Part shown: in pieces, positions 27,935-47,035 of the stretch
How the letters are laid out: every line of letters starts with the position of its first letter
How positions within the stretch are numbered: the first letter of the stretch is position 1
Assembly (NCBI GenBank): GCA_040290255.1
Contig: PSMU01000001.1
Coordinates: 198,723-262,722, forward strand
DNA from: Nitrososphaerota archaeon
Lineage (GTDB): Archaea > Thermoproteota > Nitrososphaeria > PSMU01
Direction: 5' to 3'
DNA: 64,000 bases
Made by a program: the position numbers and the translations under genes
Notes under the pieces: generated by a model
The model's input: only the letters and a program-made list of their open reading frames with translations
Databases searched by the model: none
What the model was told of the DNA's origin: nothing

Positions 27935-29500
27935 GTGGCAAGGGAGGACCTGCTCGACCGCCTCAAGGCGCTGGCCAGGATCGTGGAGGAGGGCATCGAC
28001 CCCTATCCTCACAGCTTCACGCCCACCCACGCCATAGCCGAGATAAGGAGGGCCAACCAGGGCGAGCTAAGGCTGAAGGGCCCGCTCGCGACCGCGGGGA
28101 GGGTGATGGCCATCAGGAGGCACGGGAAGGTGCTCTTCGCGGACCTGCTGGATGAAGGCGAGCGGCTTCAGATCTACCTCACCGCTGAGCGGCTGGGCGA
28201 CAGGTATTCCTGGTTCCTCAGGAACATCAACAGGGGCGACTTCCTGGGCGTAAGGGGCGAGCTCTTCTTCACGCAGAAGGGCGAGCTCACGCTGAATGTG
28301 GATGAGTACGTGCTGCTGGCCAAGTCCCTGCTCGAGCTGCCCAGCAAGTGGCATGGGCTCAGGGACGTGGAGGAGAGGTACAGGAAGAGGTACCTGGACC
28401 TACTGCTGAACGGCGAGGCCAGAAGGATCCTGCTGGTGCGCTTCTCGCTCATCAGGGAGCTCAGGAGGCAGCTGGAGGCCCGTGGGTTCATAGAGGTCGA
28501 GACGCCCATCCTCCAGCCCCTCTATGGAGGGGCCGCGGCCCGCCCCTTCAGGACGACGATAAGGGCCCTGGGCGAGGAGTGGTACCTGAGGATCTCGGAG
28601 GAGCTGCCGCTGAAGAAGCTGCTGGTGGCGGGCTTCGATAGGGTCTACGAGATAGGGAAGGTCTTCAGGAACGAAGACATAGACGTCATGCACAACCCCG
28701 AGTTCACGATGCTGGAGGCCTACCAGGCCTATGCGGACTACAACGACATGATGAGGCTCGCCGAGGAGGTGCTCTGCGCCGCCATCAGGGGCGTGCTGGG
28801 GGGCTATAGGGTGAGCTGGATGGGCAAGGAGCTGGACTTCACGCCGCCCTGGCGGCGCATAAGGCTCTACGAGGCCCTCGAGAAGTACGCCGGCGTGCGC
28901 GCCCAGGAGGCGGCGGAGGAGGAGCTGCGCTCGCTCCTCAGGCAGAAGGGGCTCGAGGCGCCCAGCGAGATGCCCCGGGGGCTCCTGCTGGAGAAGGTCT
29001 TCGACCTCTACTGCAGGCCTCAGCTGCTGAACCCCACCTTCGTGCTCGACTATCCTCGTGAGACGACGCCGCTCTGCAAGCCCCATAGGGCCCAGCCGGG
29101 GCTCGTGGAGCGCTTCGAGCTGTTCGCGGGCGGGCTCGAGCTGGCCAACGCCTACAGCGAGCTGAACAATCCGCTGCTGCAGCACAGGTTCTTCCTGGAG
29201 GAGCAGAGGATACATGCGGCGGAGGTGGAGATGGCCCACCGCTATGACGCGGACTTCGTGGAGGCGCTGATGTACGGCATGCCGCCCGCCGGCGGCATCG
29301 GAATAGGCATCGACAGGCTGGCCATGCTGCTGGCCGGGGCCCCGAGCATAAAGGAGGTGCTGCTGGCGCCCATCATGAAGAGGGTCCTCAATCCATCGCC
29401 CTTCGAGGGCGTAGAGGTGGAGGAGCTGACGCGCAAGTTCTTAAAGGAGGCGCCCCCGCTCAGGCCAGGGACGGGCCAGTGGTCTAGCCTGGTAGGATGA
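27935..29500 (+). CDS. lysS: lysyl-tRNA synthetase, class II
   Basis: Anticodon-binding OB domain plus class II motifs (KVFRNEDIDVMHNPEFTMLEAYQAY, GGIGIGIDRLAML); GTG start; last 28 nt overlap tRNA-Val. Confidence 0.9.
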   Translation: MAREDLLDRLKALARIVEEGIDPYPHSFTPTHAIAEIRRANQGELRLKGPLATAGRVMAIRRHGKVLFADLLDEGERLQIYLTAERLGDRYSWFLRNINRGDFLGVRGELFFTQKGELTLNVDEYVLLAKSLLELPSKWHGLRDVEERYRKRYLDLLLNGEARRILLVRFSLIRELRRQLEARGFIEVETPILQPLYGGAAARPFRTTIRALGEEWYLRISEELPLKKLLVAGFDRVYEIGKVFRNEDIDVMHNPEFTMLEAYQAYADYNDMMRLAEEVLCAAIRGVLGGYRVSWMGKELDFTPPWRRIRLYEALEKYAGVRAQEAAEEELRSLLRQKGLEAPSEMPRGLLLEKVFDLYCRPQLLNPTFVLDYPRETTPLCKPHRAQPGLVERFELFAGGLELANAYSELNNPLLQHRFFLEEQRIHAAEVEMAHRYDADFVEALMYGMPPAGGIGIGIDRLAMLLAGAPSIKEVLLAPIMKRVLNPSPFEGVEVEELTRKFLKEAPPLRPGTGQWSSLVG

Positions 29501-29546
29501 CGCCCTTACACGGCGTTGGTCGCCGGTTCAAATCCGGCCTGGCCCA
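29473..29546 (+). tRNA. tRNA-Val (TAC), intron-less
   Basis: Acceptor GGGCCAG / CTGGCCC, anticodon arm ACGCC-CTTACAC-GGCGT, T-arm GCCGG-TTCAAAT-CCGGC; 74 nt; CCA not encoded. Confidence 0.8.
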
Positions 29547-35073: not shown

Positions 35074-36342
35074 GTGTCCCGCGTGGCGGTCGTGGGGGGA
35101 GGGCTCGCGGGCGTCGCCGCGGCCCAGGCCCTGCTGCGGGCAGGGGAGGAGGTGGACCTATATGAAAGGGGCGGCCTAATAGGGGTTGACTGGTCGCTCC
35201 TGCCATATCTGCTGTACAGCGGCCAGGGCGCGCCCGAGGGCCCCTCGCTACAGGTTCCTGCCGCCCAAGAGCTGCCGCGCCGCCCCGAGGCCAGGCTGCT
35301 GCTGGGGCACAGCGTGATGGAGGTAAGGAGGAGCGGCAACGGGTACCTGCTCCGGCACTCCTCGCGCGGCGCCATGGGGGAGGCCTTCTACGAGAGGGTC
35401 ATCATCGCCACGGGCGCCCGGCCCAGGCAGAGGGCCGAACAGAGGAGGCACCTGTACCGCGCCGACGTGCCCGAGCACGTGGCGGAGTTCGTGAGGGAGA
35501 GGGAGGGCTTCGCGAGGGTGGCCGTGCGCGGCGACTCCCCTCCCTCGCTGGCCGCTGCCCTTGGTTTGCGCGAGAGGGGACTGGATGTGCTCTACATAGG
35601 CGCCAGGCCGCTGCTGCGCGGCCATGCCGATGCGGCGCTGGCCCCCCTGCTGGAGGAGGCCTGCAGGGCCGGCGGGCTCAGGGTGCTCACGCCGCGCCTC
35701 AGCTTTAGGGTACTGGGCAAGGGGCGCGTGGAGGCGGTGCAGGTGGATGCCGAGGTGGTGCCCTGCGACTGCGTGCTGGAGTTCCCCTCTTACTTGCCCG
35801 AGACGCAGCCGCTGGAGGGCCTGGACCTCCGGCTGGGCCCCTTCGGCATAACGGTGAGCGAGGCGATGGAGGCGGGCCCCGGCCTTTGGGCGGCGGGCAG
35901 GTGCATCTGCCTGGAGGATGGCACGCGCAGCCTCTACTCACCCTCCTTCAGCTACATCACGGGACACATAGCGGGCCTCCGCGCGGCCGGCCTGCGCCTT
36001 GCCGCCCCCTCCCTCGAGCCCGTGGAGGCCTGGAGGCTGGGCATGCTGGAGCTGGCCTTCGCGGGCTCCAGGCCCAAGGGACCCCCCCTCGCCAGAAAAT
36101 TCCTCACGATCAGGCCCTCCCTGGGCGAGGGGGGCGTCCGGGGCGTGGCCCTGCTGAAGGGGGGCCTGGTGAAGAGGGTTGAGCTGCTGGGCAGGGGGGC
36201 CCTCGCCTGGGCGCGCTGGTGCTCCCCGCTCATCTCCAGGGGGATAAGCTATGAGGAGCTGGCCCTCTGCGAATGGGGACACGTGCCCTACGAGAGCAGC
36301 CTCCCGTTATTATCCGCTTCCCTCAGCCCTGGCCGCCCTTAG
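35074..36342 (+). CDS. FAD/NAD(P)-binding oxidoreductase (pyridine nucleotide-disulfide oxidoreductase-like, divergent)
   Basis: Rossmann dinucleotide motif VAVVGGGLAGVAAAQALLRAGEEVDLYE and VIIATGARP; otherwise divergent; convergent with nuoC. Confidence 0.6.
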   Translation: MSRVAVVGGGLAGVAAAQALLRAGEEVDLYERGGLIGVDWSLLPYLLYSGQGAPEGPSLQVPAAQELPRRPEARLLLGHSVMEVRRSGNGYLLRHSSRGAMGEAFYERVIIATGARPRQRAEQRRHLYRADVPEHVAEFVREREGFARVAVRGDSPPSLAAALGLRERGLDVLYIGARPLLRGHADAALAPLLEEACRAGGLRVLTPRLSFRVLGKGRVEAVQVDAEVVPCDCVLEFPSYLPETQPLEGLDLRLGPFGITVSEAMEAGPGLWAAGRCICLEDGTRSLYSPSFSYITGHIAGLRAAGLRLAAPSLEPVEAWRLGMLELAFAGSRPKGPPLARKFLTIRPSLGEGGVRGVALLKGGLVKRVELLGRGALAWARWCSPLISRGISYEELALCEWGHVPYESSLPLLSASLSPGRP

Positions 36343-36868
36343 CTTCGCCCTCGCCCAGCGTGAGCCCGTGCTCGGCCCTCTCCTCTTCATGCCACTTCCT
36401 GAGCTGAAAGTCCTTGCGAAGCGGCGGCAGGTCGTTCCAGTCCTCCGGCAGGAGCAGGCGGCGCAGGTCCGGGTGGCCCTCGAAGGAGATGCCCAGCATC
36501 TCGAACTGCTCCCTCTCATGGTACTCCGCGCCCGGCCAGATCGCCACCAGGCTCGGCGCCCTGGGCTGCGCGCGGTTTAGCCTCGTGGCCAGCAGCACCA
36601 CGGCCCTTCTCCACTCATCGCTGGAGACCGTGCCCACGACGTACGTGAGCTCGATCTCGCCGGCCTTTGGGTAGTCGGTGCCGGTGATCATGTGCAGGTG
36701 GTCAAAGCCCAGCTCCTTGAGCAGGGCCGCCGCCTCCTTCAGGTGCTCCTGCTTAACCTCCACCTTGACCCTGTTACGATGCGGCGAGCTCACCCTTAGC
36801 GCCCGGGCCCCCAGCCTCTCCGCCAGCAGCTGGCCCAGCCGCGCCTCCAGCGCGCCCTGCTGGCTCAT
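36323..36868 (-). CDS. nuoC: complex I-like subunit C (NuoC, 30 kDa subunit)
   Basis: HEREQFEMLGISFEGHPDLRRLLLPEDW is the NuoC signature region. Confidence 0.85.
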   Translation of the reverse strand: MSQQGALEARLGQLLAERLGARALRVSSPHRNRVKVEVKQEHLKEAAALLKELGFDHLHMITGTDYPKAGEIELTYVVGTVSSDEWRRAVVLLATRLNRAQPRAPSLVAIWPGAEYHEREQFEMLGISFEGHPDLRRLLLPEDWNDLPPLRKDFQLRKWHEEERAEHGLTLGEGEAKGGQG

Positions 36869-37380
36869 CCCTCCCTTTCGTGCACCATCGAGCCCTGCCG
36901 CAGCTCCGGCTGCACGTAGGGGCTTGAGGGGGCCTTAGGGGGCACGGCCAGCTCATAGGGCGTGTAGTAGAGATGGCCCCTATCGAACTCCGAGAGCTCC
37001 TGGTCGGGCGTCATCTCGAGCGCGTAGAAGGGGCAGGCGTCGACGCAGAAGCCGCAGAAGACGCACCGCCCATAATCCACGGCCGGGTAGATGCCCTTCT
37101 TGTTCTGGGGCCTCCTCTCCTCGGGCAGGGGCACCATCTCTATGGCTTGGGCGATGTTCTCGCAGGCTATGTAGCAGAGCGAGCAGCCCGTGCACTTATC
37201 CAAGTAGAGCAGGTGCCTCCCCCTCCATCCGGGAAGGCCCGCGCCCCTCTTGGGGTCAAAGGCGTAGTTCGTGGCCAGGTTGGTGAGGAAGGCCTCGGGG
37301 TAGCGCACGGTCATCCGGGGGCGCACCAGGTGCCTTATCGCGCTGCCCAGCGCCCTCACATGCTTCGCCAGCGCGCTCAC
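36865..37380 (-). CDS. nuoI: complex I-like subunit I (NuoI, 2x[4Fe-4S] ferredoxin)
   Basis: Two CxxCxxCxxxCP motifs (CTGCSLCYIACE, CVFCGFCVDACP); start set to GTG 37380 preceded by GGAGG, directly after nuoB stop; upstream part of the track ORF is low-complexity. Confidence 0.85.
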   Translation of the reverse strand: MSALAKHVRALGSAIRHLVRPRMTVRYPEAFLTNLATNYAFDPKRGAGLPGWRGRHLLYLDKCTGCSLCYIACENIAQAIEMVPLPEERRPQNKKGIYPAVDYGRCVFCGFCVDACPFYALEMTPDQELSEFDRGHLYYTPYELAVPPKAPSSPYVQPELRQGSMVHEREG

Positions 37381-37961
37381 TCCTCCCTCCCCTCGACGTA
37401 CTGGCCCAGCGCGTTCGAGCGTCTTATCTTCTCCTGAAGCAGCACGATGCCCTCCAGGATCTGCTGCGCGGTGGGCGGGCAGCCGGGTATGTACACGTCC
37501 ACGGGTATGATCCTGTCCACGCCCTGCAGGACGTTGTAGCTGTCCACGTAGAGCCCCCCGCTGATGGCGCAGGCTCCTATCGCGATGCACCACTTGGGCT
37601 CGGGCATCTGGTCCCAGACGAGCTTAAGGCGGGGCGCCATCTTCCTTGTTACCGTGCCCAGCACGACGAGCAGGTCACACTGGCGCAGCGAGCCGAAGGC
37701 CTCGAGCACGCCGAACCTCTCCATATCCCAACGGGCCCCGGAGGCGGCCCCCCACTCCACGGAGCAGCAGGCCGTCTCCAGGTGCACGGGCCAGAGGCTG
37801 TAGAGTCGCCCCCAGTTCAGGAGATAGGCCAGCGGGTCCCTTACATTCTTCTCGAGGGCTTCCTGCAGCGCCTTAAAGACGAGCTTCGTCTGGCCCGCCA
37901 GGGCCACGAGCCCGGCCCCCGCGGCCGCCGCCGGCCTTATCTCCGCTATCTTCACGGGCAC
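37377..37961 (-). CDS. nuoB: complex I-like subunit B (NuoB, N2 cluster subunit)
   Basis: ETACCSVEW, IGACAISGG and PGCPP cysteine motifs. Confidence 0.9.
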   Translation of the reverse strand: MPVKIAEIRPAAAAGAGLVALAGQTKLVFKALQEALEKNVRDPLAYLLNWGRLYSLWPVHLETACCSVEWGAASGARWDMERFGVLEAFGSLRQCDLLVVLGTVTRKMAPRLKLVWDQMPEPKWCIAIGACAISGGLYVDSYNVLQGVDRIIPVDVYIPGCPPTAQQILEGIVLLQEKIRRSNALGQYVEGREE

Positions 37962-38045: not shown

Positions 38046-38402
38046 ATGGCGGGGCTCGGCACGTTACTGCTCACGGCGGGCTTTGTGGCCGCGGCGCTGG
38101 CGCCGCTGTACATCATCTACCTGCTCTTCGCGCCCCGGCGGCCCAACCCGGTGAAGAACGAGACCTTTGAATGCGGCCAGCCGCCCTCGGGCAGCGCGCG
38201 GGTGCACCTCTTCATGCAGTACTACCCCTTCCTGCTGATGTACCTAGTGCTGGATGTAACCACGCTCTTCCTCTATGCCTGGTCGCTCAGCGGTGCGCCC
38301 TACAGCCCCTCGAGCCTGCTGCTGATCTACGCCTTCTTGGGCGCGCTGCTGCTCCCGATAGCCTATACGCTTAAGCTCTCATACAAGAGGGAGCTGTGGT
38401 AG
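38046..38402 (+). CDS. nuoA: complex I-like subunit A (NuoA)
   Basis: 118 aa membrane protein with NETFECGQ and the NuoA-type C-terminal helix. Confidence 0.8.
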   Translation: MAGLGTLLLTAGFVAAALAPLYIIYLLFAPRRPNPVKNETFECGQPPSGSARVHLFMQYYPFLLMYLVLDVTTLFLYAWSLSGAPYSPSSLLLIYAFLGALLLPIAYTLKLSYKRELW

Positions 38403-39527
38403 ATGGCCGAGCGGGGGCTCCTGCAGCTGCTGAGGGGGCTGCTGCACCTCATCTTCTGGGCATTGATCTTCCTTCCCATCTTCGTGCTTCCCGTCTATTA
38501 TATGCTCGAGCAGCCGCTGCTGAGGCCCTTCATCTCCTCGCTGATGAGCGAGCTCACGAACCCCGCCAGCTTCGCCTTCCGGCTGATCGTCTACCCCGGC
38601 TTCACCTTCGTGGTGCTCTACGCGACCTTCCTGGTGCTGATAGAGAGGAAGCTGGCGGCTAAGGTGCAGCTGCGCGTGGGGCCGCAGTACGCGGGCAGGT
38701 TCGAGGGCATCCTGCAGAGCTTCGCGGACCTGCTGAAGATGTTGGGCAAGGAGATGATCGTGCCCGCGGGCGCGGACAAGCCGCTCTTCTTGGCGGCGCC
38801 CTTCCTGGCCACGGTGCTGGCCGGCTCGCTGATCGCGCTCGTGCCCGTATCGCCCACCTCGGCCATCGCGAACCTCAGCTATGGGCTGCTGGCCTTCTTC
38901 GCGATCCTTTCGCTCTACCCCATCATCGTCCTGCTCGCGGCGTGGTCGAGCAACAACAAGTTCACGCTCGTGGGCGGCCTCAGGGCCCTGCACCAGCTCA
39001 TCGCCTATGAGGTGCCCATGCTCGTCGCCGCGCTCACGCCGGCCCTGCTGGCCCGCTCGATAAACCCCCTCGACATAGCCGGCGCGCAGGTTATGCGAGG
39101 TATCCCCTTCCTCATGCTCGCCCCCCTCTCGGCCTTCGTCTTCTTCTGCTGCATGGTGGCCGAGCTTGAAAGGATCCCCTTCGATATACCCGAGGCGGAC
39201 AGCGAGATCGTGGCCGGCTGGCTGACGGAGTACTCCAGCGTGAGCTACCTGCTTCTTTACGGCGCCGCGCCCTACATAAAGATGTATGCCTTCGCGGGCC
39301 TCTTCACGGGGCTCTTCCTAGGAGGCTGGGCGGGCCCCTCCTTCCTGCCGCCCGACCTCTGGTTTCAGCTCAAGGCGTTCGCGGTCATCCTGCTGGTGCA
39401 GCTGCTGAGGGCCGTGTACCCCCGCTATAGGATGGATCAGCTGCTCGCCCTGGGCTGGGGGAGGCTCTTTGTGCTGGCCCTGGTGAACCTGGTGCCCGCG
39501 CCCTTTATAGCAGCGTACTTGGCCTAG
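38403..39527 (+). CDS. nuoH: complex I-like subunit H (NuoH)
   Basis: 374 aa polytopic protein with NuoH pattern (RVGPQYAG ... YEVPMLV ... ELERIPFDIPEADSEIV). Confidence 0.9.
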   Translation: MAERGLLQLLRGLLHLIFWALIFLPIFVLPVYYMLEQPLLRPFISSLMSELTNPASFAFRLIVYPGFTFVVLYATFLVLIERKLAAKVQLRVGPQYAGRFEGILQSFADLLKMLGKEMIVPAGADKPLFLAAPFLATVLAGSLIALVPVSPTSAIANLSYGLLAFFAILSLYPIIVLLAAWSSNNKFTLVGGLRALHQLIAYEVPMLVAALTPALLARSINPLDIAGAQVMRGIPFLMLAPLSAFVFFCCMVAELERIPFDIPEADSEIVAGWLTEYSSVSYLLLYGAAPYIKMYAFAGLFTGLFLGGWAGPSFLPPDLWFQLKAFAVILLVQLLRAVYPRYRMDQLLALGWGRLFVLALVNLVPAPFIAAYLA

Positions 39528-39535
39528 GGCGCGGC

Positions 39536-40021
39536 ATGGTCGATCTAGCCTTCATCGCGCTCGCCTCGCTCACGGTGGGGGCCGCGGTGCTCTCGCTCGA
39601 GGCGAGGCAGCTGGTCTACGGCGCGGTGAGCCTCGCGCTCTTCTTCCTCTTCGTGGGCGGCCTCTTCGCGCTCCTGGGCGCGCCCTTTCTGGCCATGTTT
39701 CAGATCTTCATAAACGTGGGGGCCGTGGCCGTGCTGATCATCTTCACGGTCATGCTGGTCAGCCCGCAGCGGTGGCAGGAGCGGCGGCCAAGGGAGGCCC
39801 GGCTGGGGCTCGTGGGGCTGCTCATCACGCTCTTCGGGCTCGTGCCCCTGCTCTATCCCCTTGTGCAGGGGGTGGGGCTCTTGAGCTCGCCGCCCACGCT
39901 CGGCGGGGAGCTGGGCTCGCTGCTGCTGGAGCGCTACGGCCTGGCGCTGGTGCTGCTGGCCTTTCTATTGGCCGCGGCCATAGCGGCCTCCGTCACGCTG
40001 GCGAAGGAGGAGAAGGGCTGA
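39536..40021 (+). CDS. nuoJ: complex I-like subunit J (NuoJ)
   Basis: 161 aa membrane protein, NuoJ-like; stop overlaps nuoK ATG. Confidence 0.8.
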   Translation: MVDLAFIALASLTVGAAVLSLEARQLVYGAVSLALFFLFVGGLFALLGAPFLAMFQIFINVGAVAVLIIFTVMLVSPQRWQERRPREARLGLVGLLITLFGLVPLLYPLVQGVGLLSSPPTLGGELGSLLLERYGLALVLLAFLLAAAIAASVTLAKEEKG

Positions 40022-40329
40022 TGGCCGCCCTGGGCGATTACCTGCTGCTTTCGCTGCTGCTGCTGGCCGTGGGCATCTATGGCCTGGTCTCGAAGAGGGA
40101 TGCCATAAGGCTTCTCTTCGCGCTGGAGATCATCCTGAACGCCGCCCTGCTCAACGCCGTGCTCTTCACGCGCACGCCGGCGGCCCTGGCGCCCGCGGGC
40201 CAGGTGCTGGCGCTCTTCATCATCTCGATAGGGGCCTGTGAGGTGGCCGTGGGCCTGGCCATAATAATCCTGCTCTACAGGCGCACGGGCGACGTGGACG
40301 TTTTGGAGCTGAGGAAGGTCAGGGATTAG
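40021..40329 (+). CDS. nuoK: complex I-like subunit K (NuoK)
   Basis: MAALGDYLLLSLLLLAVGIYGL ... GACEVAVGLAIII; internal ATG of track ORF 39772..40329, overlapping nuoJ stop (TGATG). Confidence 0.85.
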   Translation: MAALGDYLLLSLLLLAVGIYGLVSKRDAIRLLFALEIILNAALLNAVLFTRTPAALAPAGQVLALFIISIGACEVAVGLAIIILLYRRTGDVDVLELRKVRD

Positions 40330-40379
40330 CGCCCAACTCCTTAAATAAAGGGCCCTAGGGCCCCGTGCAGCCGTGAGGC

Positions 40380-41978
40380 TTGAGTCCAGGGCCCCCCTTC
40401 ACGGGGGCAAGAGCTCCAGGCCTCTGGCCTTGGTCGGCGGCGCAGGGCCCTTGGCAGGGGGGTGATGGCTTGCCCATCCCCTACTCGCTCACCCAGGCGA
40501 CGTTCCTCCCCCTCGCCGGGGCCGTGCTCGCCTATTTCCTGGGCGGGAGGCTCCTGAGGAGGATCGGCTGGCTGGCCTTCGCGCTGCTCTCCTACTCGAG
40601 CCTGCTGCTGGGCCTGAGCTACCTAGAGCCGGCAGGGGGGTTCCCCTTGCTCGAGCGCTTCGGCTGGACCTCGGTGCCTGGCCTGAGCTTCGGGCTCCTG
40701 GGCGATGGCCTCAGCCTGCCCGTGGCGTTAGTGATGAACGTGGCCGCCGCCGCGGTGGCCGTCTATTCGATGCCCTACATGGCCAGGAGGATGGCGGCGC
40801 TTTACGGCGAGGAGAGGGGCTCGTTCTGGGGGCTCTACTACGCCAACTACCTGCTCTTCGCCGCGGGGCTCACGGGCGTGGCGCTGGCCACGAACCTGAT
40901 CGAGCTGTACATCTTCGTCGAGCTCATCCTCATCCCCGCATACCTGCTCCTGGGCCTCTTCGGCCAGGTTGACCGGCAGCGCATTGCGCTCATGTACTTC
41001 ATCTGGAACCAGCTGGGCGCCTTCATCTTCCTTGCCGGCATCCTCGTGGCCTGGTTTGGAACGAGGAGCTTTGACATCGCCGCCCTTGGCGCGCTAGGGG
41101 GCCCCTTGGCGCTCCTGGTCACGGGGCTCATGCTACTGGGCTGGCTGATCAAGATGGCCACCTTCGGCTTCCACGTATGGCTCCCCTTCGCGTATGGCGA
41201 ATTCCCCAGCTCCGTCGCGGCCATCAGCGCCATCACGGGACTGGGAAGCTACGTGCTCACCAGGCTGCTGGTCCTTAACCTCTACTCCTCATTCCAACAG
41301 CTGGCCCATCTTATCATCCTGCTGGCCGTCGTGACGCTGCTGTACGGCGGCGCGCTGGCCCTCGCGCAGGAGGACATCAACCGGCTTTATGCATGGTCCA
41401 CGGTCAGCCAGACGGCCTACCTGCTGCTGGGCCTGGCCAGCCTGAGCGCGCTGGGCATCGCGGGCAGCATCTTCCTCTTCCTGGCCCAGGTGCTGGGCAA
41501 GGCGGTGCTCTTCTGCGTGGCGGGCATCCTGGTGACGCAAACGGGCCTGAGGCAGATGGGCAGGATGGGCGGCTATGCCGCGAGGATGCCCCTCACCGCG
41601 CTCCTGGCGCTGGGCGCTTCACTCATCATCTCCGCCGTGCCGCCGACGCTGGGCTTTCAGGGCGAATGGTTGCTCTTTACGGGGCTTCTGGGCTCGGCCC
41701 TGTACGGGCCCCCCTTCTCGCTGGCGCTGGGCTTCGCCGCCCTGCTGGGCACGATGCTCACCGTGGCCTACACGCTCTGGGCCGTTAAGCGCATCTTCTT
41801 CGGCCCGCTGAGCGGGGAGGCCGGGGAGCTGAGCGAGGCGCCCAAGAGCATGACGCTGCCCCTGCTCGCGCTCCTGGCCCTCGCGCTGCTACTGGGCATC
41901 TACCCCGAGCCCCTGCTGGGCCCGCTCTACAGGTACCTGGCTTCAGCGCTGCCCTCGGGCCTGCCGCTGGGAGGATGA
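40380..41978 (+). CDS. antiporter-like membrane subunit (NuoM/N-related, degenerate; fourth antiporter-like subunit)
   Basis: Polytopic, NuoM/N-like, but the conserved W-L-P-D-A motif reads FHVWLPFAYGEFPSS; N-terminal ~30 aa of the track ORF are probably not translated (possible TTG start at 40470). Confidence 0.75.
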   Translation: MSPGPPFTGARAPGLWPWSAAQGPWQGGDGLPIPYSLTQATFLPLAGAVLAYFLGGRLLRRIGWLAFALLSYSSLLLGLSYLEPAGGFPLLERFGWTSVPGLSFGLLGDGLSLPVALVMNVAAAAVAVYSMPYMARRMAALYGEERGSFWGLYYANYLLFAAGLTGVALATNLIELYIFVELILIPAYLLLGLFGQVDRQRIALMYFIWNQLGAFIFLAGILVAWFGTRSFDIAALGALGGPLALLVTGLMLLGWLIKMATFGFHVWLPFAYGEFPSSVAAISAITGLGSYVLTRLLVLNLYSSFQQLAHLIILLAVVTLLYGGALALAQEDINRLYAWSTVSQTAYLLLGLASLSALGIAGSIFLFLAQVLGKAVLFCVAGILVTQTGLRQMGRMGGYAARMPLTALLALGASLIISAVPPTLGFQGEWLLFTGLLGSALYGPPFSLALGFAALLGTMLTVAYTLWAVKRIFFGPLSGEAGELSEAPKSMTLPLLALLALALLLGIYPEPLLGPLYRYLASALPSGLPLGG

Positions 41979-41979
41979 T

Positions 41980-44118
41980 ATGTCGGTCCCCTCCTACGCC
42001 CTTTGGGCCATCTTCCTGGTGCCCTACGCCGGCGCCCTGCTCTCCTTGGCGCTCTGGAGGCTTCCGCGGCTCAGGGACGGCGTGGCGCTCTCGGCCTCGC
42101 TCGGCAGCGCGCTGTTTTCGCTCTGGCCCCTGGCCTCCCTCCTCTCGGGCGGCCTGACCGTTTACGACTCCGTCATCCCCGCCCGCATCCCCTGGATCCC
42201 CTCCCTTGGCATCACGGCCGGCGTGCTGAGCGACCCGCTCACCATCATTCTGGCCAGCTTGGTGGCCTGGATCAGCTTTGCCGTCATGGTCTACAGTCTG
42301 GGCTACATGAGGGGCGACCCGGGCCTCACGCGCTACTGGTTCTTCATGAACTTCTTCATAGGCAACATGGAGCTGCTGGTGCTCTCGGATAACTTCCTTC
42401 AGCTCTTCTTCGGGTGGGAGGGCGTGGGGCTCTGCAGCTATGCGCTCATAGGCCACTGGTACAGCGATGAGGAGGATAAGTGGGTGGGCACCAGGGGGCA
42501 CGTCGTATGGGGCGAGGAGCAGGCCTACCCTCCCTCGCATGCCGGGCTGAAGGCCTTCCTCATGACGCGCTTCGGCGACGTCTTCTTCCTGGCCGGCCTC
42601 TTCCTGCTCTACAACTTCGCGCACACCTTCAACTATGACGAGCTGGCGAGGTCGGCGCTGGGGGCCGGAGGCTGGGCCGAGGCCCTGCGGGCCAGGGGCC
42701 TGCTCGTGCCCGTAGCCCTGCTCATCTTCGGCGGCGCCGTGGGCAAGTCCGCGCAGTTCCCGCTGCATGAGTGGCTGCCCGATGCCATGGCCGGGCCGAC
42801 TACGGTTTCGGCGTTGATACATGCGGCGACGATGGTCAACGCGGGCGTGGTGCTCGTGGCCAGGGCAGCACCGCTCTTTTATGCGCCCTTCTCGGCCTCC
42901 CCCGAGGCCGTGCAGGGCTTCTTTCAGGCCGTGGCCTGGATAGGCGGCTTCACGGCCTTCTTGGCGGCCACGCAGGCCTGCGTGGGCTTTGAGCTGAAGA
43001 AGATCCTGGCCTACTCCACCTTCTCCCAGATAGGGTACATGATTCTGGCCCTGGGCGTGGCGGGGCTCTCCTCGTTGCCCGTGGGTCTCTCCGCCGGCAC
43101 CTACCACTTGATGAGCCACGCCATCTTCAAGGCAACGCTCTTCTTGGCCGCGGGGGCGCTGATACATGCCTGCGAGTCAAAGTATGTGAGCGATATGGGA
43201 GGCCTGGCCGGGAGGATGAGGGTTACGCTGGCCGCCTTCCTCATCTCCGCCGCCTCCCTCGCGGGCCTCCCTCCCTTTAGCGGCTTCTGGAGCAAGGAGT
43301 CGGTGCTGCTCGCCTGCTGGCAGGCGGGCCAGTACGGCCTCTTCGCGCTGGCCGCGGCCTCTTCCGCGCTTACGGCATTTTACTCCTTCAGGCTGCTGGG
43401 CCTCATCTTCTATGGCGGCGAAAGCGAGAGGCTCAGGCAGCTCTTGGGCAGGGGGCATGAAGTTAAGGAGGCGCCGCCCGTGCTGCTTCTGCCCTACGTA
43501 GCCCTTTCGCTGTTTACGGTGCTGCTGGGCCTCTTGGCGCCGCTCGTGGGCCTGGAGGCGCGGCTGGAGGAGGCCTCCACGGCATACCTGGCCTCTCTGT
43601 TTCCAGGGCTGGCCACGGGCGGCCTGGGCGGCTTCGCGTTGGCCCCCTCCATGATCGGCCTGGGCCTCTCCTCGCTGGGCGCCGTCGTGGGCTGGGCGGC
43701 CTACATTTCGCCGCGGGCCGGCATTAGGGCCTTGGGGGCCACGGGCCTGGCAAGGGCCCTCTACTCCTTCTTCGAGGCGCGCTGGTACATCAACGCCTTC
43801 TACTATAAGGCCTTCATGAGGGCGCCGCTTCGGCTCTTTAATCTCGCCCAGGAGCGGCTCGAGCTCCCGCTGCTGGCCAAGCTGAGCGATGTGGGCGCGC
43901 TGGCGGGGGTGGGCCTCTCCTCCTTGGCCAACTGGTTCGACGCCAACGTGGTGGACAGGATGGGCGCCGCGCTCGCGGCCGTGAGCAGCTCGCTCTCTAG
44001 GGTAGCCAGGCGGCTGCAGAGCGGCGTGGTCGAGCAGTACCTCTTCGTCGTCGCCGTGGGCGCGGTGCTCGTGGTGCTGCTGCTCCTCTTCCTGCTGGGG
44101 AGGGTGGCGCCGGCATGA
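41980..44118 (+). CDS. nuoL: complex I-like subunit L (NuoL)
   Basis: 712 aa with FPLHEWLPDAMAGPTTVSALIHAATMVNAG and a long C-terminal extension. Confidence 0.9.
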   Translation: MSVPSYALWAIFLVPYAGALLSLALWRLPRLRDGVALSASLGSALFSLWPLASLLSGGLTVYDSVIPARIPWIPSLGITAGVLSDPLTIILASLVAWISFAVMVYSLGYMRGDPGLTRYWFFMNFFIGNMELLVLSDNFLQLFFGWEGVGLCSYALIGHWYSDEEDKWVGTRGHVVWGEEQAYPPSHAGLKAFLMTRFGDVFFLAGLFLLYNFAHTFNYDELARSALGAGGWAEALRARGLLVPVALLIFGGAVGKSAQFPLHEWLPDAMAGPTTVSALIHAATMVNAGVVLVARAAPLFYAPFSASPEAVQGFFQAVAWIGGFTAFLAATQACVGFELKKILAYSTFSQIGYMILALGVAGLSSLPVGLSAGTYHLMSHAIFKATLFLAAGALIHACESKYVSDMGGLAGRMRVTLAAFLISAASLAGLPPFSGFWSKESVLLACWQAGQYGLFALAAASSALTAFYSFRLLGLIFYGGESERLRQLLGRGHEVKEAPPVLLLPYVALSLFTVLLGLLAPLVGLEARLEEASTAYLASLFPGLATGGLGGFALAPSMIGLGLSSLGAVVGWAAYISPRAGIRALGATGLARALYSFFEARWYINAFYYKAFMRAPLRLFNLAQERLELPLLAKLSDVGALAGVGLSSLANWFDANVVDRMGAALAAVSSSLSRVARRLQSGVVEQYLFVVAVGAVLVVLLLLFLLGRVAPA

Positions 44119-45587
44119 TGCCGATCCTCTCCGCGCTGATCCTGCTGCCGCTGCTGGGGGCCCCGATAGGCTATGCGCTCTTCAGGCTTAACAGGCGCGC
44201 CGGCCTTGCCTTCTGCCTCTCGGTCACGGCCGCCACGCTGGCGCTCTCGCTGGCAGCCTATGCCCTGGTGGCCCTGCGCCCCTCCCCTCCCGGAGCCTAT
44301 GCGCTGGTGGAGCGCTACAGCTGGGTCTCCCTGCCCGACTTCTCATTCGATCTGCTGCTCGGTCTGGATGGGCTGGGCGCGGTCCTGCTGGTGCTCTCCT
44401 CCCTCCTTACGCTTCTGGCGATGGCCGGCTCCCCCGCGCTCATCAGAGAAAGGGAGGGCGAGTACTACTCGCTGATGCTGCTCTTCGAGGGGGCGATAAA
44501 CGGCGTGTTCAGTTCCCTGAACCTGATCTTCTTCTATATCTTCTGGGACCTGGTGCTGATCCCCATGTTCCTCTTCATAGGCATCTGGGGCGGGCCGCGG
44601 CGCAAGTATGCGGCCCTCAAGTTCCTGCTGTACACCTTCACGGGAAGCGTGGTCATGCTCACCGGCTTCCTGATCGCCTACTTTGGCTCGCCCGTGCGCT
44701 CCTTCAACCTGCCCGAGCTCATGGGCCACGTGCCGGCTACGCTGCAGCTGTATTCGTTGCTCGCGGCCTTCATAGGCTTCGGGATAAAGCTGCCCGTCTT
44801 CCCCTTCCACAGCTGGCTGCCCGATGCGCACGTGGAGGCGCCCGCGCCCATCAGCGTGCTCTTGGCTGGGGTGCTGCTCAAGATGGGCGGCTACGGCTTC
44901 ATAAGGATAGGCCTTCAGCTCTTTCCCGAGGCCTCAAGGCAGCTCGCCTGGCTCTTCATGGCCGTTGGGCTGGCCACGATGTTCTACGGGGCCATCGTGG
45001 CGCTCCTCTCATCGGACCTCAAGAGGATGATCGCGCTCACGAGCATCAACCACATGGGCTTCGTGCTCCTGGGCGCCTATGCCGCCATAGCCTCCGGCGC
45101 CGCCCTGGGCCTGCAGGGGGCCATCTTTCAGATGTTCAACCACGGCCTGGCCATAGGCTCCCTCTTCTTGCTCTCGGGCTATATACATGAGCAGGCGGGG
45201 ACTAGGGAGATCAGCCGGCTGGGCGGGCTAAGGTATGCCATGCCGCGCACCGCGGCGCTCCTGATGCTCAGCAGCCTGGCGGGCATGGGCTTCCCCCTCT
45301 TCTCGAGCTTCCTAAGCGAATTCATGGTCATCGCGGGTGCCGTGGCGGGCTACAGGGCCTACTCGGTGGCCGTGCTGGTGCCCGTCATCACGGGGGCCTA
45401 CTTTATGTGGATGCTGAGGCGCACGGTGCTCAGCGAAAGGAACGAAGCGCTGCCGGCGCACGACCTGCCGACGCGTGAGGCGCTGCTGCTCCTGGCCTTC
45501 CTGCTGCCCCTCACGCTGCTCCTCTTCATGCCCTCGCTCATCCTCTCGCCGCTGCAGCCCTTGGTGGAGAGCGTTATGGGGCCATGA
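44115..45587 (+). CDS. nuoM: complex I-like subunit M (NuoM)
   Basis: FHSWLPDAHVEAPAPISVLLAGVLLKMGGYG. Confidence 0.85.
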   Translation: MMPILSALILLPLLGAPIGYALFRLNRRAGLAFCLSVTAATLALSLAAYALVALRPSPPGAYALVERYSWVSLPDFSFDLLLGLDGLGAVLLVLSSLLTLLAMAGSPALIREREGEYYSLMLLFEGAINGVFSSLNLIFFYIFWDLVLIPMFLFIGIWGGPRRKYAALKFLLYTFTGSVVMLTGFLIAYFGSPVRSFNLPELMGHVPATLQLYSLLAAFIGFGIKLPVFPFHSWLPDAHVEAPAPISVLLAGVLLKMGGYGFIRIGLQLFPEASRQLAWLFMAVGLATMFYGAIVALLSSDLKRMIALTSINHMGFVLLGAYAAIASGAALGLQGAIFQMFNHGLAIGSLFLLSGYIHEQAGTREISRLGGLRYAMPRTAALLMLSSLAGMGFPLFSSFLSEFMVIAGAVAGYRAYSVAVLVPVITGAYFMWMLRRTVLSERNEALPAHDLPTREALLLLAFLLPLTLLLFMPSLILSPLQPLVESVMGP

Positions 45588-47035
45588 ACCCGCTCTACAT
45601 CATCGCGGTCCTGCTGGTGGCCTCGCTCGCTACCGTGCTGCTGCAACTGCTGGGCGCCGGGCGGCGGGGGGCGGCGGTGCCGCTGTTGGGCCTTACGTTC
45701 GCGGTGGGCGCAACGCTACAGGGCCTCTTGGGCGGGGGGAGCGGCGTGGGCCCCCTGGCCGCGGACGGGCTGGGCTTCTTCTTCGCGCTGGTGGGCAGCT
45801 TCGTGGGCCTCTCAGCGCTAGTCGCCAGCCTGGAATACCTGAGGGGGGATGAGAATGAGCTGCTCTTCTACAGCCTCCTGCTCGCCTCGGTGGGGGGCCT
45901 TGTCGCGCTCTCCTTCGCCAGGGACCTGCTGACGCTCTTCGTCTCATGGGAGCTGATGGGCATCCCCACCTTCGCGATGGCCGCCTTCAACAAGAAGAGC
46001 GAGGCCTCGCTGGAGGCGGGCCTGAAGTACTTCTTCGTGGGCGCCCTCTCGACCGGGCTGCTCGCCTATGGGATCTCGCTGGCCTATCTGCTCACGGGCT
46101 CACTGGACCTCGCCGGGGTGGCCGCGGGCTTCTCATCGCTCAGCGCCCAGCAGCTCCCCCTGGCGGCCGCGGCCGCGGGCCTCCTGGCGGCGGGCTTCGG
46201 GTTCAAGATGGCCTTCGTCCCCTTTCATATCTGGATCCCCGATGCCTATCAGGGCGCGCCCACGACGCTCTCGGCCTACCTTTCCGCGGCCACCAAGAAG
46301 GCCGGCTTCGTCGCCGCCATAAGGGTGCTGCTCATCTCCCTCGCCCTTCAGCCCCTGCTGAGGCTCGGCTGGGCCGAGCTCTTCGCCGCCCTCTCGCTGC
46401 TCACGATGACCTTCGCCAACCTGGCCGCCCTGACCCAGAGGAGCCTCACGAGGCTGCTCGCTTACTCCAGCATCGCCCAGGCGGGATATATACTGCTGGG
46501 CCTGGCCGTGACGGGGCCCGCCTCGGCCTTCGCGCTCAGCTCCGCTCTCTTTCACGTGCTGAACCACGCGATCCTCTCGGGCCTCTCCTTCATAGCCGCC
46601 GCCTCGTACCTGAAGGGCCTGGGCACGGACGACCTGGATGCCCTGGCGGGCAGCGGGGCAAGGACTCCCTGGACCTCGGTGAGCCTGGCCATCGCGCTGC
46701 TGGGCCTCGCGGGCCTGCCGCCCATTAACGGCTTCTGGAGCAAGCTCTTCATCTTCTCGGCCTCGGTGCAGGCGGGCGGCGTCTACTGGTGGGGCCCCTA
46801 CCTGGCCCTGGCCGGCTTCCTGAACAGCGCGCTGAGCCTGGGCTACTACGGCTGGGTGATTCGCAGGCTCTTCTTCGATGAGCCCGCCGGAGAGGGAGGA
46901 AACGAGCCCAGGCTGCTGGCCCTGCTCTGTGCCGCCCTGGCCGCGCTGGCGCTGCTGATAGGCCTCCTGCCGGGGCCCTTCGCGCGCCTGCTCTACGATG
47001 TAGCTTCCTCCTTCTTGGCCAGCGGCGGGACCTAG
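45584..47035 (+). CDS. nuoN: complex I-like subunit N (NuoN)
   Basis: FHIWIPDAYQGAPTTLSAYLSAATKKAG. Confidence 0.85.
   Translation: MNPLYIIAVLLVASLATVLLQLLGAGRRGAAVPLLGLTFAVGATLQGLLGGGSGVGPLAADGLGFFFALVGSFVGLSALVASLEYLRGDENELLFYSLLLASVGGLVALSFARDLLTLFVSWELMGIPTFAMAAFNKKSEASLEAGLKYFFVGALSTGLLAYGISLAYLLTGSLDLAGVAAGFSSLSAQQLPLAAAAAGLLAAGFGFKMAFVPFHIWIPDAYQGAPTTLSAYLSAATKKAGFVAAIRVLLISLALQPLLRLGWAELFAALSLLTMTFANLAALTQRSLTRLLAYSSIAQAGYILLGLAVTGPASAFALSSALFHVLNHAILSGLSFIAAASYLKGLGTDDLDALAGSGARTPWTSVSLAIALLGLAGLPPINGFWSKLFIFSASVQAGGVYWWGPYLALAGFLNSALSLGYYGWVIRRLFFDEPAGEGGNEPRLLALLCAALAALALLIGLLPGPFARLLYDVASSFLASGGT

What the first reader, a model, noticed from the sequence alone, without database searches (positions are those of the whole stretch)
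40380..41978. Fourth antiporter-like subunit with a degenerate proton-channel motif
NuoL, NuoM and NuoN homologues each keep the W-L/I-P-D-A motif, but this additional 500 to 530 aa antiporter-like protein reads FHVWLPFAYGEFPSS at the same position (Asp replaced by Phe). It is inserted between nuoK and nuoL. It may be a structural or regulatory paralogue rather than a pumping subunit.
Basis: partly seen in the sequence, partly recalled or inferred. Interest (0 to 1): 0.5.

Follow-up and report, generated by a model that had tools for sequence, protein, structure and literature searches.

The report
Fourth antiporter subunit, archaeal 2M complex I
The gene is a real fourth antiporter-like subunit of an archaeal complex I of the already described "2M" type; its odd motif is shared by its whole widespread family, so the arrangement is normal for the lineage.

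Summary
An intact antiporter-like gene ("X") lies between nuoK and nuoL. Its probable start is TTG 40470, giving 502 aa. It reads FHVWLPFAYGEFPSS where NuoL, NuoM and NuoN keep W-L/I-P-D-A.

It is not an isolated degenerate copy. None of about 200 orthologues from Nitrososphaerota, Bathyarchaeia and Methanomethylicia has the Asp, and nearly all have Gly in place of the central TM8 lysine (122/124 and 73/73). The TM5 Glu/TM7 Lys pair, the His-x-Trp-Leu-Pro gate, a NuoL-like TM11 Lys and the NuoM-like TM12 Glu are invariant or nearly so.

Every measurable NuoL from a K-X-L-M-N cluster (39 by the first pattern; 37 plus one longer outlier by a stricter one) has exactly 26 extra residues in its lateral helix. 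NuoL from three-subunit clusters does not. That insertion is the published hallmark of 2M complex I (Chadwick et al. 2018).

In other archaea an X-type protein is the only M-like subunit, so X is the native archaeal M type. The Asp is not needed for pumping: solved mammalian ND4 has Lys and ND5 has Ser at that position.

Most likely X is an integrated module that still takes part in charge and proton transfer through a rewired central axis. A relay-only role is not excluded. This is a new member of a known kind, of modest interest.

The parts
40470..41978 (+). Gene X: fourth antiporter-like subunit, a divergent archaeal NuoM-type protein of 502 aa.
   Evidence: (P0001 100% identical, 502 aa)
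41169..41213 (+). Motif FHVWLPFAYGEFPSS (residues 234-248). H235-x-W237-L238-P239 is kept. F240 replaces the Asp (E. coli NuoM D246). Y242 replaces the TMH7b His.
41238..41240 (+). Gly257, at the position of the central TM8 lysine (E. coli NuoM K265). Gly in 122/124 and 73/73 family members.
40920..40922 (+). Glu151, the TM5 glutamate of the ion pair (E. coli NuoM E144). Invariant in the family.
41151..41153 (+). Lys228, the TM7 lysine of the ion pair (E. coli NuoM K234). Invariant in the family.
41487..41501 (+). TM11 segment Q340-V-L-G-K344. Gln replaces the TM11 His (His in about 92-96% of the family). Lys344 lies at the NuoL K342-like position and is invariant in the family.
41664..41666 (+). 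Glu399, the distal TM12 glutamate (E. coli NuoM E407), which is the M-type signature.
41980..44118 (+). nuoL (712 aa) with an extended lateral helix HL (about residues 577-686, nt 43708-44037).
43888..43965 (+). 26-residue insertion in helix HL of NuoL (residues 637-662), relative to NuoL of three-subunit clusters.
   Evidence: for the published hallmark
44115..45587 (+). Canonical nuoM (490 aa). TIGR01972 scores 447 bits against a cutoff of 263.8. It keeps D237, K256 and E402.
45584..47035 (+). nuoN (483 aa).
38046..40329 (+). nuoA (38046-38402), nuoH (38403-39527), nuoJ (39536-40021) and nuoK (40021-40329), upstream of X.
36323..37961 (-). Divergently transcribed nuoB (37377-37961), nuoI (36865 to about 37380) and nuoC (36323-36868). 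No nuoD is present in the window.
40330..40469 (+). 140-nt nuoK-X spacer. Its first ~60 nt are conserved with L001: a TATA-like CCTTAAATAAAGG followed by a GC palindrome.
   Evidence: read by eye, not tested

Best explanation
The window carries the membrane-arm operon of an archaeal (Nitrososphaerota MAG) complex I-like enzyme of the known "2M" type. The operon is nuoA-H-J-K-X-L-M-N, with nuoB-I-C divergent.

Shown:
- There are four antiporter-like subunits. Two are M-like, with a distal TM12 Glu: the canonical NuoM and X.
- NuoL carries exactly 26 extra residues in its lateral helix. Published work postulates that such an insertion accommodates a fourth pumping subunit.
- X belongs to an old, widespread archaeal M-type family. 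In other lineages this family supplies the only M-like subunit.
- The family as a whole lacks the WLPD Asp and the central TM8 Lys. It keeps the TM5 Glu/TM7 Lys pair, the His-Trp-Leu gate, a NuoL-like TM11 Lys, the TM11 Phe and the TM12 Glu.

Inferred:
- X is built into the membrane arm under the lengthened helix HL.
- It passes on the electrostatic and protonation wave through its ion pair and distal Glu.
- It probably still moves a proton along a rewired central axis: K228, then water, then K344, then E399. In this scheme the TM11 lysine takes over the role of the missing TM8 lysine.
- In the window's own lineage three further residues linked to proton uptake from the cytoplasmic side have changed (His to Tyr242, Lys to Asn304, His to Gln340). 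Here its own uptake path may be weakened, and it may act mainly as a lateral relay.
For: Architecture:
- Four PF00361 genes lie in one nuo cluster.
- L001, 71% identical, has identical synteny.
- K-X-L-M-N recurs in GTDB Bathyarchaeia MAGs, in metagenome contigs and on a 2-Mb contig.

Lateral helix HL:
- A MAFFT alignment shows a clean 26-aa gap.
- The spacing between the RWYxD and LQxG motifs is 78 aa in 39/39 measured X-L-... clusters. It is 52 aa in 11/11 n-L-X clusters and in 5/5 bacterial LMN clusters.
- A stricter pattern gives 37 clusters at 78 aa plus one at 105 aa, against 18/18 at 52 aa.
- PMC9040806 names a 26-aa HL insertion as the mark of 2M complex I.
- PMC7300363 and PMC9038741 report 2M or duplicated-M complex I in Thaumarchaeota and Nitrososphaerales.

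M-like nature of X:
- The best PDB sequence matches are NdhD, NuoM and ND4.
- The best NCBIfam model is NDH_I_M.
- The AF2 model has pLDDT 84.6 and pTM 0.88. Its best Foldseek hits are NuoM/ND4 chains with TM-scores of 0.84-0.88.
- In a neighbour-joining tree the X clade is sister to the M clade.
- hhalign of the X and M alignments gives probability 100%.

Conservation:
- Key-residue tables are, and invariant columns.
- Identity between orthologues is X 51%, N 51%, L 55% and M 60%.

X as the only M-like subunit:
- Three-subunit clusters occur in Bathyarchaeota, in Methanomethylicia and in a relative of Wolframiiraptor.
- The wider TM8-Gly family is annotated as NuoM in Thermoprotei, Wolframiiraptor and Methanosuratincola.

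The Asp is dispensable: ND4 has Lys218 and ND5 has Ser235 in solved structures.
Against: - The central TM8 Lys, described as conserved in every antiporter-like subunit (PMC9271201), is absent.
- The bridging His (E. coli H322) is Gln.
- In this lineage the TMH7b His, the TM10 Lys and the TM11 His are also lost. PMC10396290 links the TMH7b His and the TM10 Lys to the connection with the matrix side, and the window's X resembles ND2, where no such connection was seen.
- AF2 models residues 235-243 with pLDDT below 50 and predicts no TM7b helix. The canonical M, with an alignment of equal depth, gets a TM7b helix at pLDDT of about 72-79.
- X falls below the curated NuoM cutoff (222 against 263.8 bits).
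- There is no experimental or structural evidence that X sits in the complex, where it sits, or that it moves protons.
Confidence: 0.6

Rival explanations
1. X is a non-pumping module. It occupies a slot in the membrane arm and only transmits or tunes the electrostatic signal, or stabilises the arm, without taking up or releasing a proton of its own.
For: - The central TM8 Lys and the H322-equivalent His are lost across the family.
- The window lineage has also lost the TMH7b His, the TM10 Lys and the TM11 His.
- This pattern resembles ND2, for which no connection to the matrix side was observed.
- The TM7b region is modelled with low confidence, unlike in the canonical M.
Against: - Five buried ionisable residues (E151, K228, H235, K344, E399), the gate Leu and the TM11 Phe are invariant or nearly so.
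- X is as conserved as NuoN.
- X-type proteins are the only M-like subunit in three-subunit complexes. A dead module there would break the chain leading to NuoL.
- The Asp itself is absent from ND4 and ND5, which do pump.
Confidence: 0.3
2. X transports or senses a different ion (Na+ or K+), like an Mrp-type module grafted onto complex I.
For: A more distant X-like protein (P0261) sits inside an Mrp-type cluster in Methanosuratincola. X also gives moderate scores to the MrpD, MrpA and Hyf models.
Against: - No MrpB, C, E, F or G genes lie near X in the syntenic locus L001 or in the window's operon.
- All Mrp models score far below their cutoffs (for example 163.5 against 542 bits).
- The best sequence and fold matches are NuoM, ND4 and NdhD.
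- No ion-site residues were identified.
Confidence: 0.05
3. X is a decaying duplicate (pseudogene in progress), or is not part of complex I at all.
For: The motif is degenerate, and X scores below the NuoM cutoff.
Against: - The ORF is intact, and orthologues are found in well over 100 protein clusters.
- About 100 columns are invariant in a 21-sequence alignment.
- The stop codon of X is immediately followed by the nuoL start (41978/41980).
- The HL insertion tracks the number of subunits without exception.
Confidence: 0.03

Closest known systems
2M-type complex I (Chadwick, Hemp, Fischer & Orphan 2018, ISME J; reported for Nitrospira, Chloroflexi and Thaumarchaeota/Nitrososphaerales)
   Same: Four antiporter-like subunits are encoded in one nuo cluster, and two of them are M-like. 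NuoL has a 26-residue insertion in the lateral helix HL. NuoEFG is absent from the window, as reported for the thaumarchaeal enzymes.
   Different: Here the two M-like subunits are not recent duplicates. X is a deeply diverged archaeal M type that lacks the central TM8 Lys and the WLPD Asp. The gene order is K-X-L-M-N, whereas nuoL-M1-M2-N is described for Chloroflexi. I could not read the 2018 paper, so I cannot say whether it already notes these substitutions.
Canonical NuoM / ND4 / NdhD (TIGR01972; PDB 8qby_M, 3rko_M, 6hum_D)
   Same: X shares the antiporter-like fold, the TM5 Glu/TM7 Lys pair, the His-x-Trp-Leu-Pro gate and the distal TM12 Glu.
   Different: X scores below the curated cutoff. 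TM8 Lys is Gly, D246 is Phe, and the H322 equivalent is Gln. X has an extra TM11 Lys, as in NuoL. TM7b is not modelled as a helix.
Three-subunit archaeal complex I/Fpo-like clusters (K-n-L-X) of Bathyarchaeota, Methanomethylicia and relatives of Wolframiiraptor
   Same: They carry an orthologous X-type subunit, about 50% identical to the window's X, with the same TM8 Gly and TM11 Lys.
   Different: They have only three antiporter-like subunits. NuoL has the short HL (52-aa spacing), and its TM5 Glu is replaced by Lys. No canonical M is present.
Mammalian ND4 and ND5
   Same: Both lack the Asp of the WLPD motif (ND4 Lys218, ND5 Ser235), yet they are accepted pumping subunits.
   Different: They keep the central TM8 Lys (ND4 K237) or His (ND5 H248). 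X has Gly there.

Membership tests
2M-type complex I | Four antiporter-like (PF00361) genes in one nuo gene cluster | tested here: met
   X, L, M and N at 40470-47035 all match PF00361. The same layout is found in L001, L105 and more than 30 other loci.
2M-type complex I | Two of the four subunits are NuoM-like | tested here: met
   X and M both have the distal TM12 Glu. The X clade is sister to the M clade in a neighbour-joining tree. hhalign of the X and M alignments gives probability 100%. The best NCBIfam model for X is NDH_I_M.
2M-type complex I | Insertion of about 26 aa in the lateral helix HL of NuoL | tested here: met
   The window's NuoL has exactly 26 extra residues (637-662). The spacing is 78 aa in the four-subunit clusters, apart from one at 105 aa (L093), and 52 aa in all measured three-subunit clusters. 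The published criterion is quoted.
2M-type complex I | The extra subunit is physically built into the complex and translocates a fifth proton | not testable with these tools
   This needs purification, a structure or a stoichiometry measurement. It is also only hypothesised in the literature.
NuoM (NCBIfam TIGR01972 NDH_I_M) | Score at or above the curated cutoff of 263.8 bits | tested here: not met
   X scores 222 bits. The window's canonical M scores 447 bits.
Canonical antiporter-like subunit of complex I (NuoL/M/N pattern as summarised in PMC9271201) | TM5 Glu/Asp and TM7 Lys ion pair | tested here: met
   E151 and K228 are invariant in 124/124 and 73/73 family members.
Canonical antiporter-like subunit of complex I (NuoL/M/N pattern as summarised in PMC9271201) | Conserved central lysine on TM8 (NuoM K265) | tested here: not met
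   X has Gly257. The family has Gly in 122/124 and 73/73 members. No Lys or His lies anywhere in the N-terminal half of TM8, so a small alignment shift cannot rescue it.
Canonical antiporter-like subunit of complex I (NuoL/M/N pattern as summarised in PMC9271201) | At least one bridging histidine between the central and distal residues | tested here: not met
   The H322 equivalent is Gln in the whole family. The H348 equivalent is His in about 92-96% of the family but Gln340 in the window's X.
Canonical antiporter-like subunit of complex I (NuoL/M/N pattern as summarised in PMC9271201) | Distal TM12 Lys (L, N) or Glu (M) | tested here: met
   X has E399. The family has Glu in 121/124 members.
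Pfam PF00361 Proton_antipo_M | Gathering score of 21.5 bits | tested here: met
   X scores 154.2 bits, E = 5.6e-45.
Mrp antiporter MrpD/MrpA | Curated model cutoff reached, and the small Mrp subunit genes (MrpB/C/E/F/G) encoded alongside | tested here: not met
   The best MrpD model scores 163.5 bits against a cutoff of 542. No Mnh/Mrp Pfam families occur within +/-10 kb in the syntenic locus L001. In the window the flanking genes are nuoK and nuoL.

The most novel reading that the evidence does not exclude
The X family may be a natural rewiring of the antiporter-like module. On this reading the central proton-loading lysine has moved from TM8 to TM11, or has been lost altogether. In the window's lineage the residues for uptake from the cytoplasmic side have also gone. 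X would then work as a pure lateral relay, passing charge or a proton between its neighbours. If true, archaeal K-n-L-X and K-X-L-M-N enzymes would be natural test cases. They would bear on the debate between one proton per antiporter subunit and all protons leaving through the distal subunit. They would also mean that the fifth proton assumed for archaeal 2M complexes is not guaranteed.
Probability: 0.25. Interest if true: 0.6.

Novelty: new member of a known kind. Interest (0 to 1): 0.3.

Why it matters
Genome papers routinely credit 2M complex I with an extra pumped proton. In the archaeal version one of the two M subunits lacks the residue that current models treat as the proton-loading site, the central TM8 lysine. 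The same protein type is the only M subunit in many Thermoproteota enzymes.

Two readings follow. Either the central lysine is dispensable or can be relocated, which bears on how complex I works. Or the assumed 5 H+/2e- stoichiometry is wrong for these archaea, which bears on energy budgets for slow-growing soil and hot-spring archaea.

For this window in particular the result is ordinary. It is a typical member of a widespread and already described gene arrangement.

Tried and rejected
- The Chadwick et al. 2018 paper is not held, by DOI or by PMC id. Its content is cited only through papers that quote it.
- Full-text searches for the motif (WLPDA and variants) found nothing. Searches for mutants of the equivalent Asp (NuoN D229, NuoM D246) found nothing relevant. 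No mutational data could therefore be cited for that residue.
- The single-protein scan of GTDB genomes used few peptide patterns. It returned only Bathyarchaeia at 40-46% identity, one unclassified archaeon whose hit was the canonical NuoM, and bacterial (Bdellovibrionales) NuoM. The bacterial loci served as a three-subunit control.
- The idea that a shifted acidic or basic residue compensates was rejected. Glu244 is also present in canonical M (VEAP), and TM8 of X has no Lys or His within +/-2 positions.
- The pseudogene, assembly-artefact and Mrp-operon readings were rejected; see the rival explanations.
- That tree is neighbour-joining only and has no outgroup, so I do not rely on its rooting or on X3 nesting inside X4.
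- The first HL pattern missed some NuoL variants and gave one false value of 81 for L059. These were checked by eye and with a second pattern.
- Which of X and M lies next to NuoL could not be inferred from the interface residues.
Full report
**1. What is there**

The window is archaeal. Kae1/Bud32, ribosomal proteins S15 and S3Ae, and a RecJ-like protein lie next to the locus. G+C is about 66%. Its NuoM is identical to NCBI protein C4339_01520 of a "Nitrososphaerota archaeon" MAG.

On the + strand lie, in order:
- nuoA, 38046-38402
- nuoH, 38403-39527
- nuoJ, 39536-40021
- nuoK, 40021-40329
- the gene in question, X
- nuoL, 41980-44118 (712 aa)
- nuoM, 44115-45587
- nuoN, 45584-47035

nuoB, nuoI and nuoC are transcribed divergently at 36323-37961.

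X translates to an antiporter-like protein (PF00361, 154 bits) that reads FHVWLPFAYGEFPSS. L, M and N read WLPDAM, WLPDAH and WIPDAY at the same place.

The likely start is TTG 40470 (502 aa), not 40380. A GGTGAT box precedes it. An identical 502-aa protein is on record. The 71%-identical orthologue in L001 has no room for the extension.

**2. The substitution belongs to a whole family**

A search of 5.8 billion proteins gave 881 hits. The best 120 are 48-71% identical and come from Nitrososphaerota/Thaumarchaeota, Bathyarchaeota and Methanomethylicia. None has Asp after WLP.

I used the window's canonical M as a ruler for E. coli NuoM numbering. The 124-member alignment then shows:

| Position (E. 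coli NuoM) | State in the X family |
|---|---|
| TM5 Glu (E144) | 124/124 |
| TM7 Lys (K234) | 124/124 |
| His241, Trp243, Pro245 | 124/124 |
| D246 | never Asp: T34, Y32, I19, W12, H10, F6, S6, P2 |
| TM8 Lys (K265) | Gly in 122/124 |
| TM11 His | 114/124 (Gln in the window) |
| TM11 Lys, at the NuoL K342 position | 123/124 |
| TM12 Glu (E407) | 121/124 |

An independent set taken from fetched loci gives the same picture for 73 X proteins. In that set every L, M and N paralogue keeps Asp or Glu at position 246. A profile-profile alignment of X against M confirms the register: F240 aligns with D237, G257 with K256, Q340 with H343, K344 with I347, and E399 with E402.

No Lys or His lies in the N-terminal half of TM8, so a small shift cannot restore the central lysine.

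The window's X and its relative in L001 are the most reduced members of the four-subunit set. They also carry Tyr242 for the TMH7b His, Asn304 for the TM10 Lys and Gln340 for the TM11 His.

**3. The gene cluster is a 2M-type complex I**

X homologues occur in two recurrent layouts.
- K-X-L-M-N, with four antiporter-like genes. Examples are the window, L001, GTDB Bathyarchaeia MAGs, a 2-Mb contig and more than 30 metagenome contigs.
- K-n-L-X, with three. Examples are Bathyarchaeota, Methanomethylicia and a relative of Wolframiiraptor.

An alignment of NuoL shows a clean 26-residue insertion in the lateral helix HL of the four-subunit type. In the window these are residues 637-662, nt 43888-43965.

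I measured the distance between the RWYxD and LQxG motifs.
- With the first pattern it is 78 aa in 39/39 X-L-... clusters. It is 52 aa in 11/11 n-L-X clusters and in 5/5 bacterial L-M-N clusters.
- With a stricter pattern it is 78 aa in 37 clusters and 105 aa in one outlier, against 52 aa in 18/18 three-subunit clusters.

A 26-aa HL insertion is the published hallmark of the 2M complex I of Chadwick et al. 2018 (quoted in PMC9040806). 2M or duplicated-M complex I lacking NuoEFG is reported for heterotrophic marine Thaumarchaeota, for ammonia-oxidising Nitrososphaerales and for Angelarchaeales (PMC7300363; PMC9038741).

**4. What X is**

X is M-like.
- Its best PDB sequence matches are NdhD1, NuoM and ND4, at 2e-37 and weaker.
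- Its best NCBIfam model is NDH_I_M.
- The AF2 model (pLDDT 84.6, pTM 0.88) superposes best on NuoM/ND4/NdhD chains, with TM-scores of 0.84-0.88.
- In a neighbour-joining tree the X clade is sister to the canonical M clade.
- It carries the M-specific distal Glu.

It is not a canonical NuoM. It scores 222 bits against the curated cutoff of 263.8, whereas the window's M scores 447. That M matches Paracoccus NuoM at 7e-79.

A HMMER search of 1.84 billion cluster representatives shows a broad archaeal family with the TM8 "GIGGY" signature. Some lineages in it still keep the Asp (Wolframiiraptor, a Thermoprotei archaeon). Members are annotated as NuoM. The Gly at TM8 is therefore more widespread than the Asp loss, which suggests it is the older change.

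X is thus the native Thermoproteota-type M. In the four-subunit clusters the canonical M is at least as good a candidate for the added subunit as X is.

**5. Does the motif mean loss of pumping?**

The Asp alone does not. Solved mammalian ND4 chains read LHLWLPKAH (Lys218), and ND5 chains read LHPWLPSAM (Ser235).

In the AF2 model of the window's M, this Asp lies at the N-terminal end of the short helix TM7b, just after the gating Leu (PMC10396290).

The loss of the central TM8 lysine matters more. Current descriptions treat it as conserved in every antiporter-like subunit and as the residue loaded from the cytoplasmic side (PMC9271201).

Several results count against a dead module.
- The ion pair, the His-Trp-Leu gate (the Leu-to-Ala variant of Paracoccus ND4 is inactive), the TM11 Phe, a TM11 Lys and the distal Glu are invariant or nearly so.
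- X is as conserved between orthologues as NuoN (mean identity 51% for both).
- X-type proteins are the only M-like subunit in three-subunit enzymes. There they presumably sit between the N-like subunit and NuoL (inference).

Other results count toward reduced function in this lineage.
- There are three additional losses in or near the uptake path.
- AF2 gives pLDDT below 50 and no TM7b helix for residues 235-243 of X. The canonical M, with an equally shallow alignment, gets a TM7b helix at pLDDT of about 72-79.

**6. Verdict**

X is most likely an integrated fourth module of a known enzyme type, and it still takes part in charge and proton transfer along a rewired axis (K228, water, K344, E399). 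I give this 0.6. A relay-only or spacer role gets about 0.3. Different ion specificity, decay, or not belonging to the complex are each unlikely.

The finding is a new member of a known kind. The family-wide absence of the central lysine in an M-type subunit is a modestly interesting detail. I could not find it discussed in the literature held here, but I could not read the key 2018 paper.

Noticed in passing
window 40330-40469; L001 9855-10000: The nuoK-X junction has a 140-nt spacer, while all other + strand nuo junctions abut or overlap. Its first ~60 nt are conserved with L001: a TATA-box-like CCAACTCCTTAAATAAAGG followed by a GC-rich palindrome whose sequence differs but still pairs (GGGCCCTAGGGCCC in the window, GGCCGCTCGGCC in L001). 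It may be an internal promoter or a processing element.
   Followed up: partly
window 1-64000; L001: No nuoD is present anywhere in the 64-kb window (tblastn with a Bathyarchaeota NuoD found nothing), nor within 10 kb of the cluster in L001. nuoB-I-C is divergent from nuoA-H-J-K-X-L-M-N, so the operon is split in this lineage.
   Followed up: partly
L093 11597-13810: The NuoL of this four-subunit cluster (A-B-C-D-H-I-J-K-X-L-M-N) groups with the three-subunit type of NuoL and has WLPEAM. Its HL spacing is 105 aa, that is 52 plus 53. The extra length comes from an obvious tandem duplication (RSPTIRYVENPMDRLLNEKIPRFFYWL / RGPTLRYVENPMDRLINQRVPGLWIIF). This looks like an independent, and longer, HL extension.
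   Followed up: partly
L002-L005, L033, L041, L047, L083, L087, L095 (three-subunit clusters): In K-n-L-X clusters NuoL has Lys in place of the TM5 Glu (10/10) and WLPEAM. The N-like subunit often has Glu at the TM8 central position and Glu at TM12. The charge pattern of the whole arm is unusual.
   Followed up: no
M genes of some four-subunit loci, e.g. L038, L048: In a subgroup of four-subunit clusters the "canonical" M itself has the TM7 Lys replaced by Glu (8/39) and the gating Leu replaced by Gln (10/39).
   Followed up: no
L108 7079-14494: In Methanosuratincola a more distant X-like protein (WLPLAHGEAP, TM8 Gly) lies inside an Mrp-type cluster (MnhE, MrpF, MnhG, MbhD, MnhB, MnhC-like, MrpD-like) and not in a nuo cluster.
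   Followed up: no
L105 7453-9081; L106 7548-9107: NuoI in these two contigs of 2.1 Mb and 1.6 Mb, which carry X homologues, is 542 and 519 aa long. It carries a LAGLIDADG (intein-type) domain. In L106 the nuoL region is broken up.
   Followed up: no
window 29473-29546 (+): This tRNA gene is the only Rfam match in the window. It partly overlaps the 3' end of the lysyl-tRNA-synthetase-like ORF (27935-29500).
   Followed up: no
L107 300-794 and 10456-10698: The three-subunit cluster of a relative of Wolframiiraptor is flanked by HycI and HypC hydrogenase-maturation genes. This raises the question of whether that "complex I" is a hydrogenase-type enzyme.
   Followed up: no
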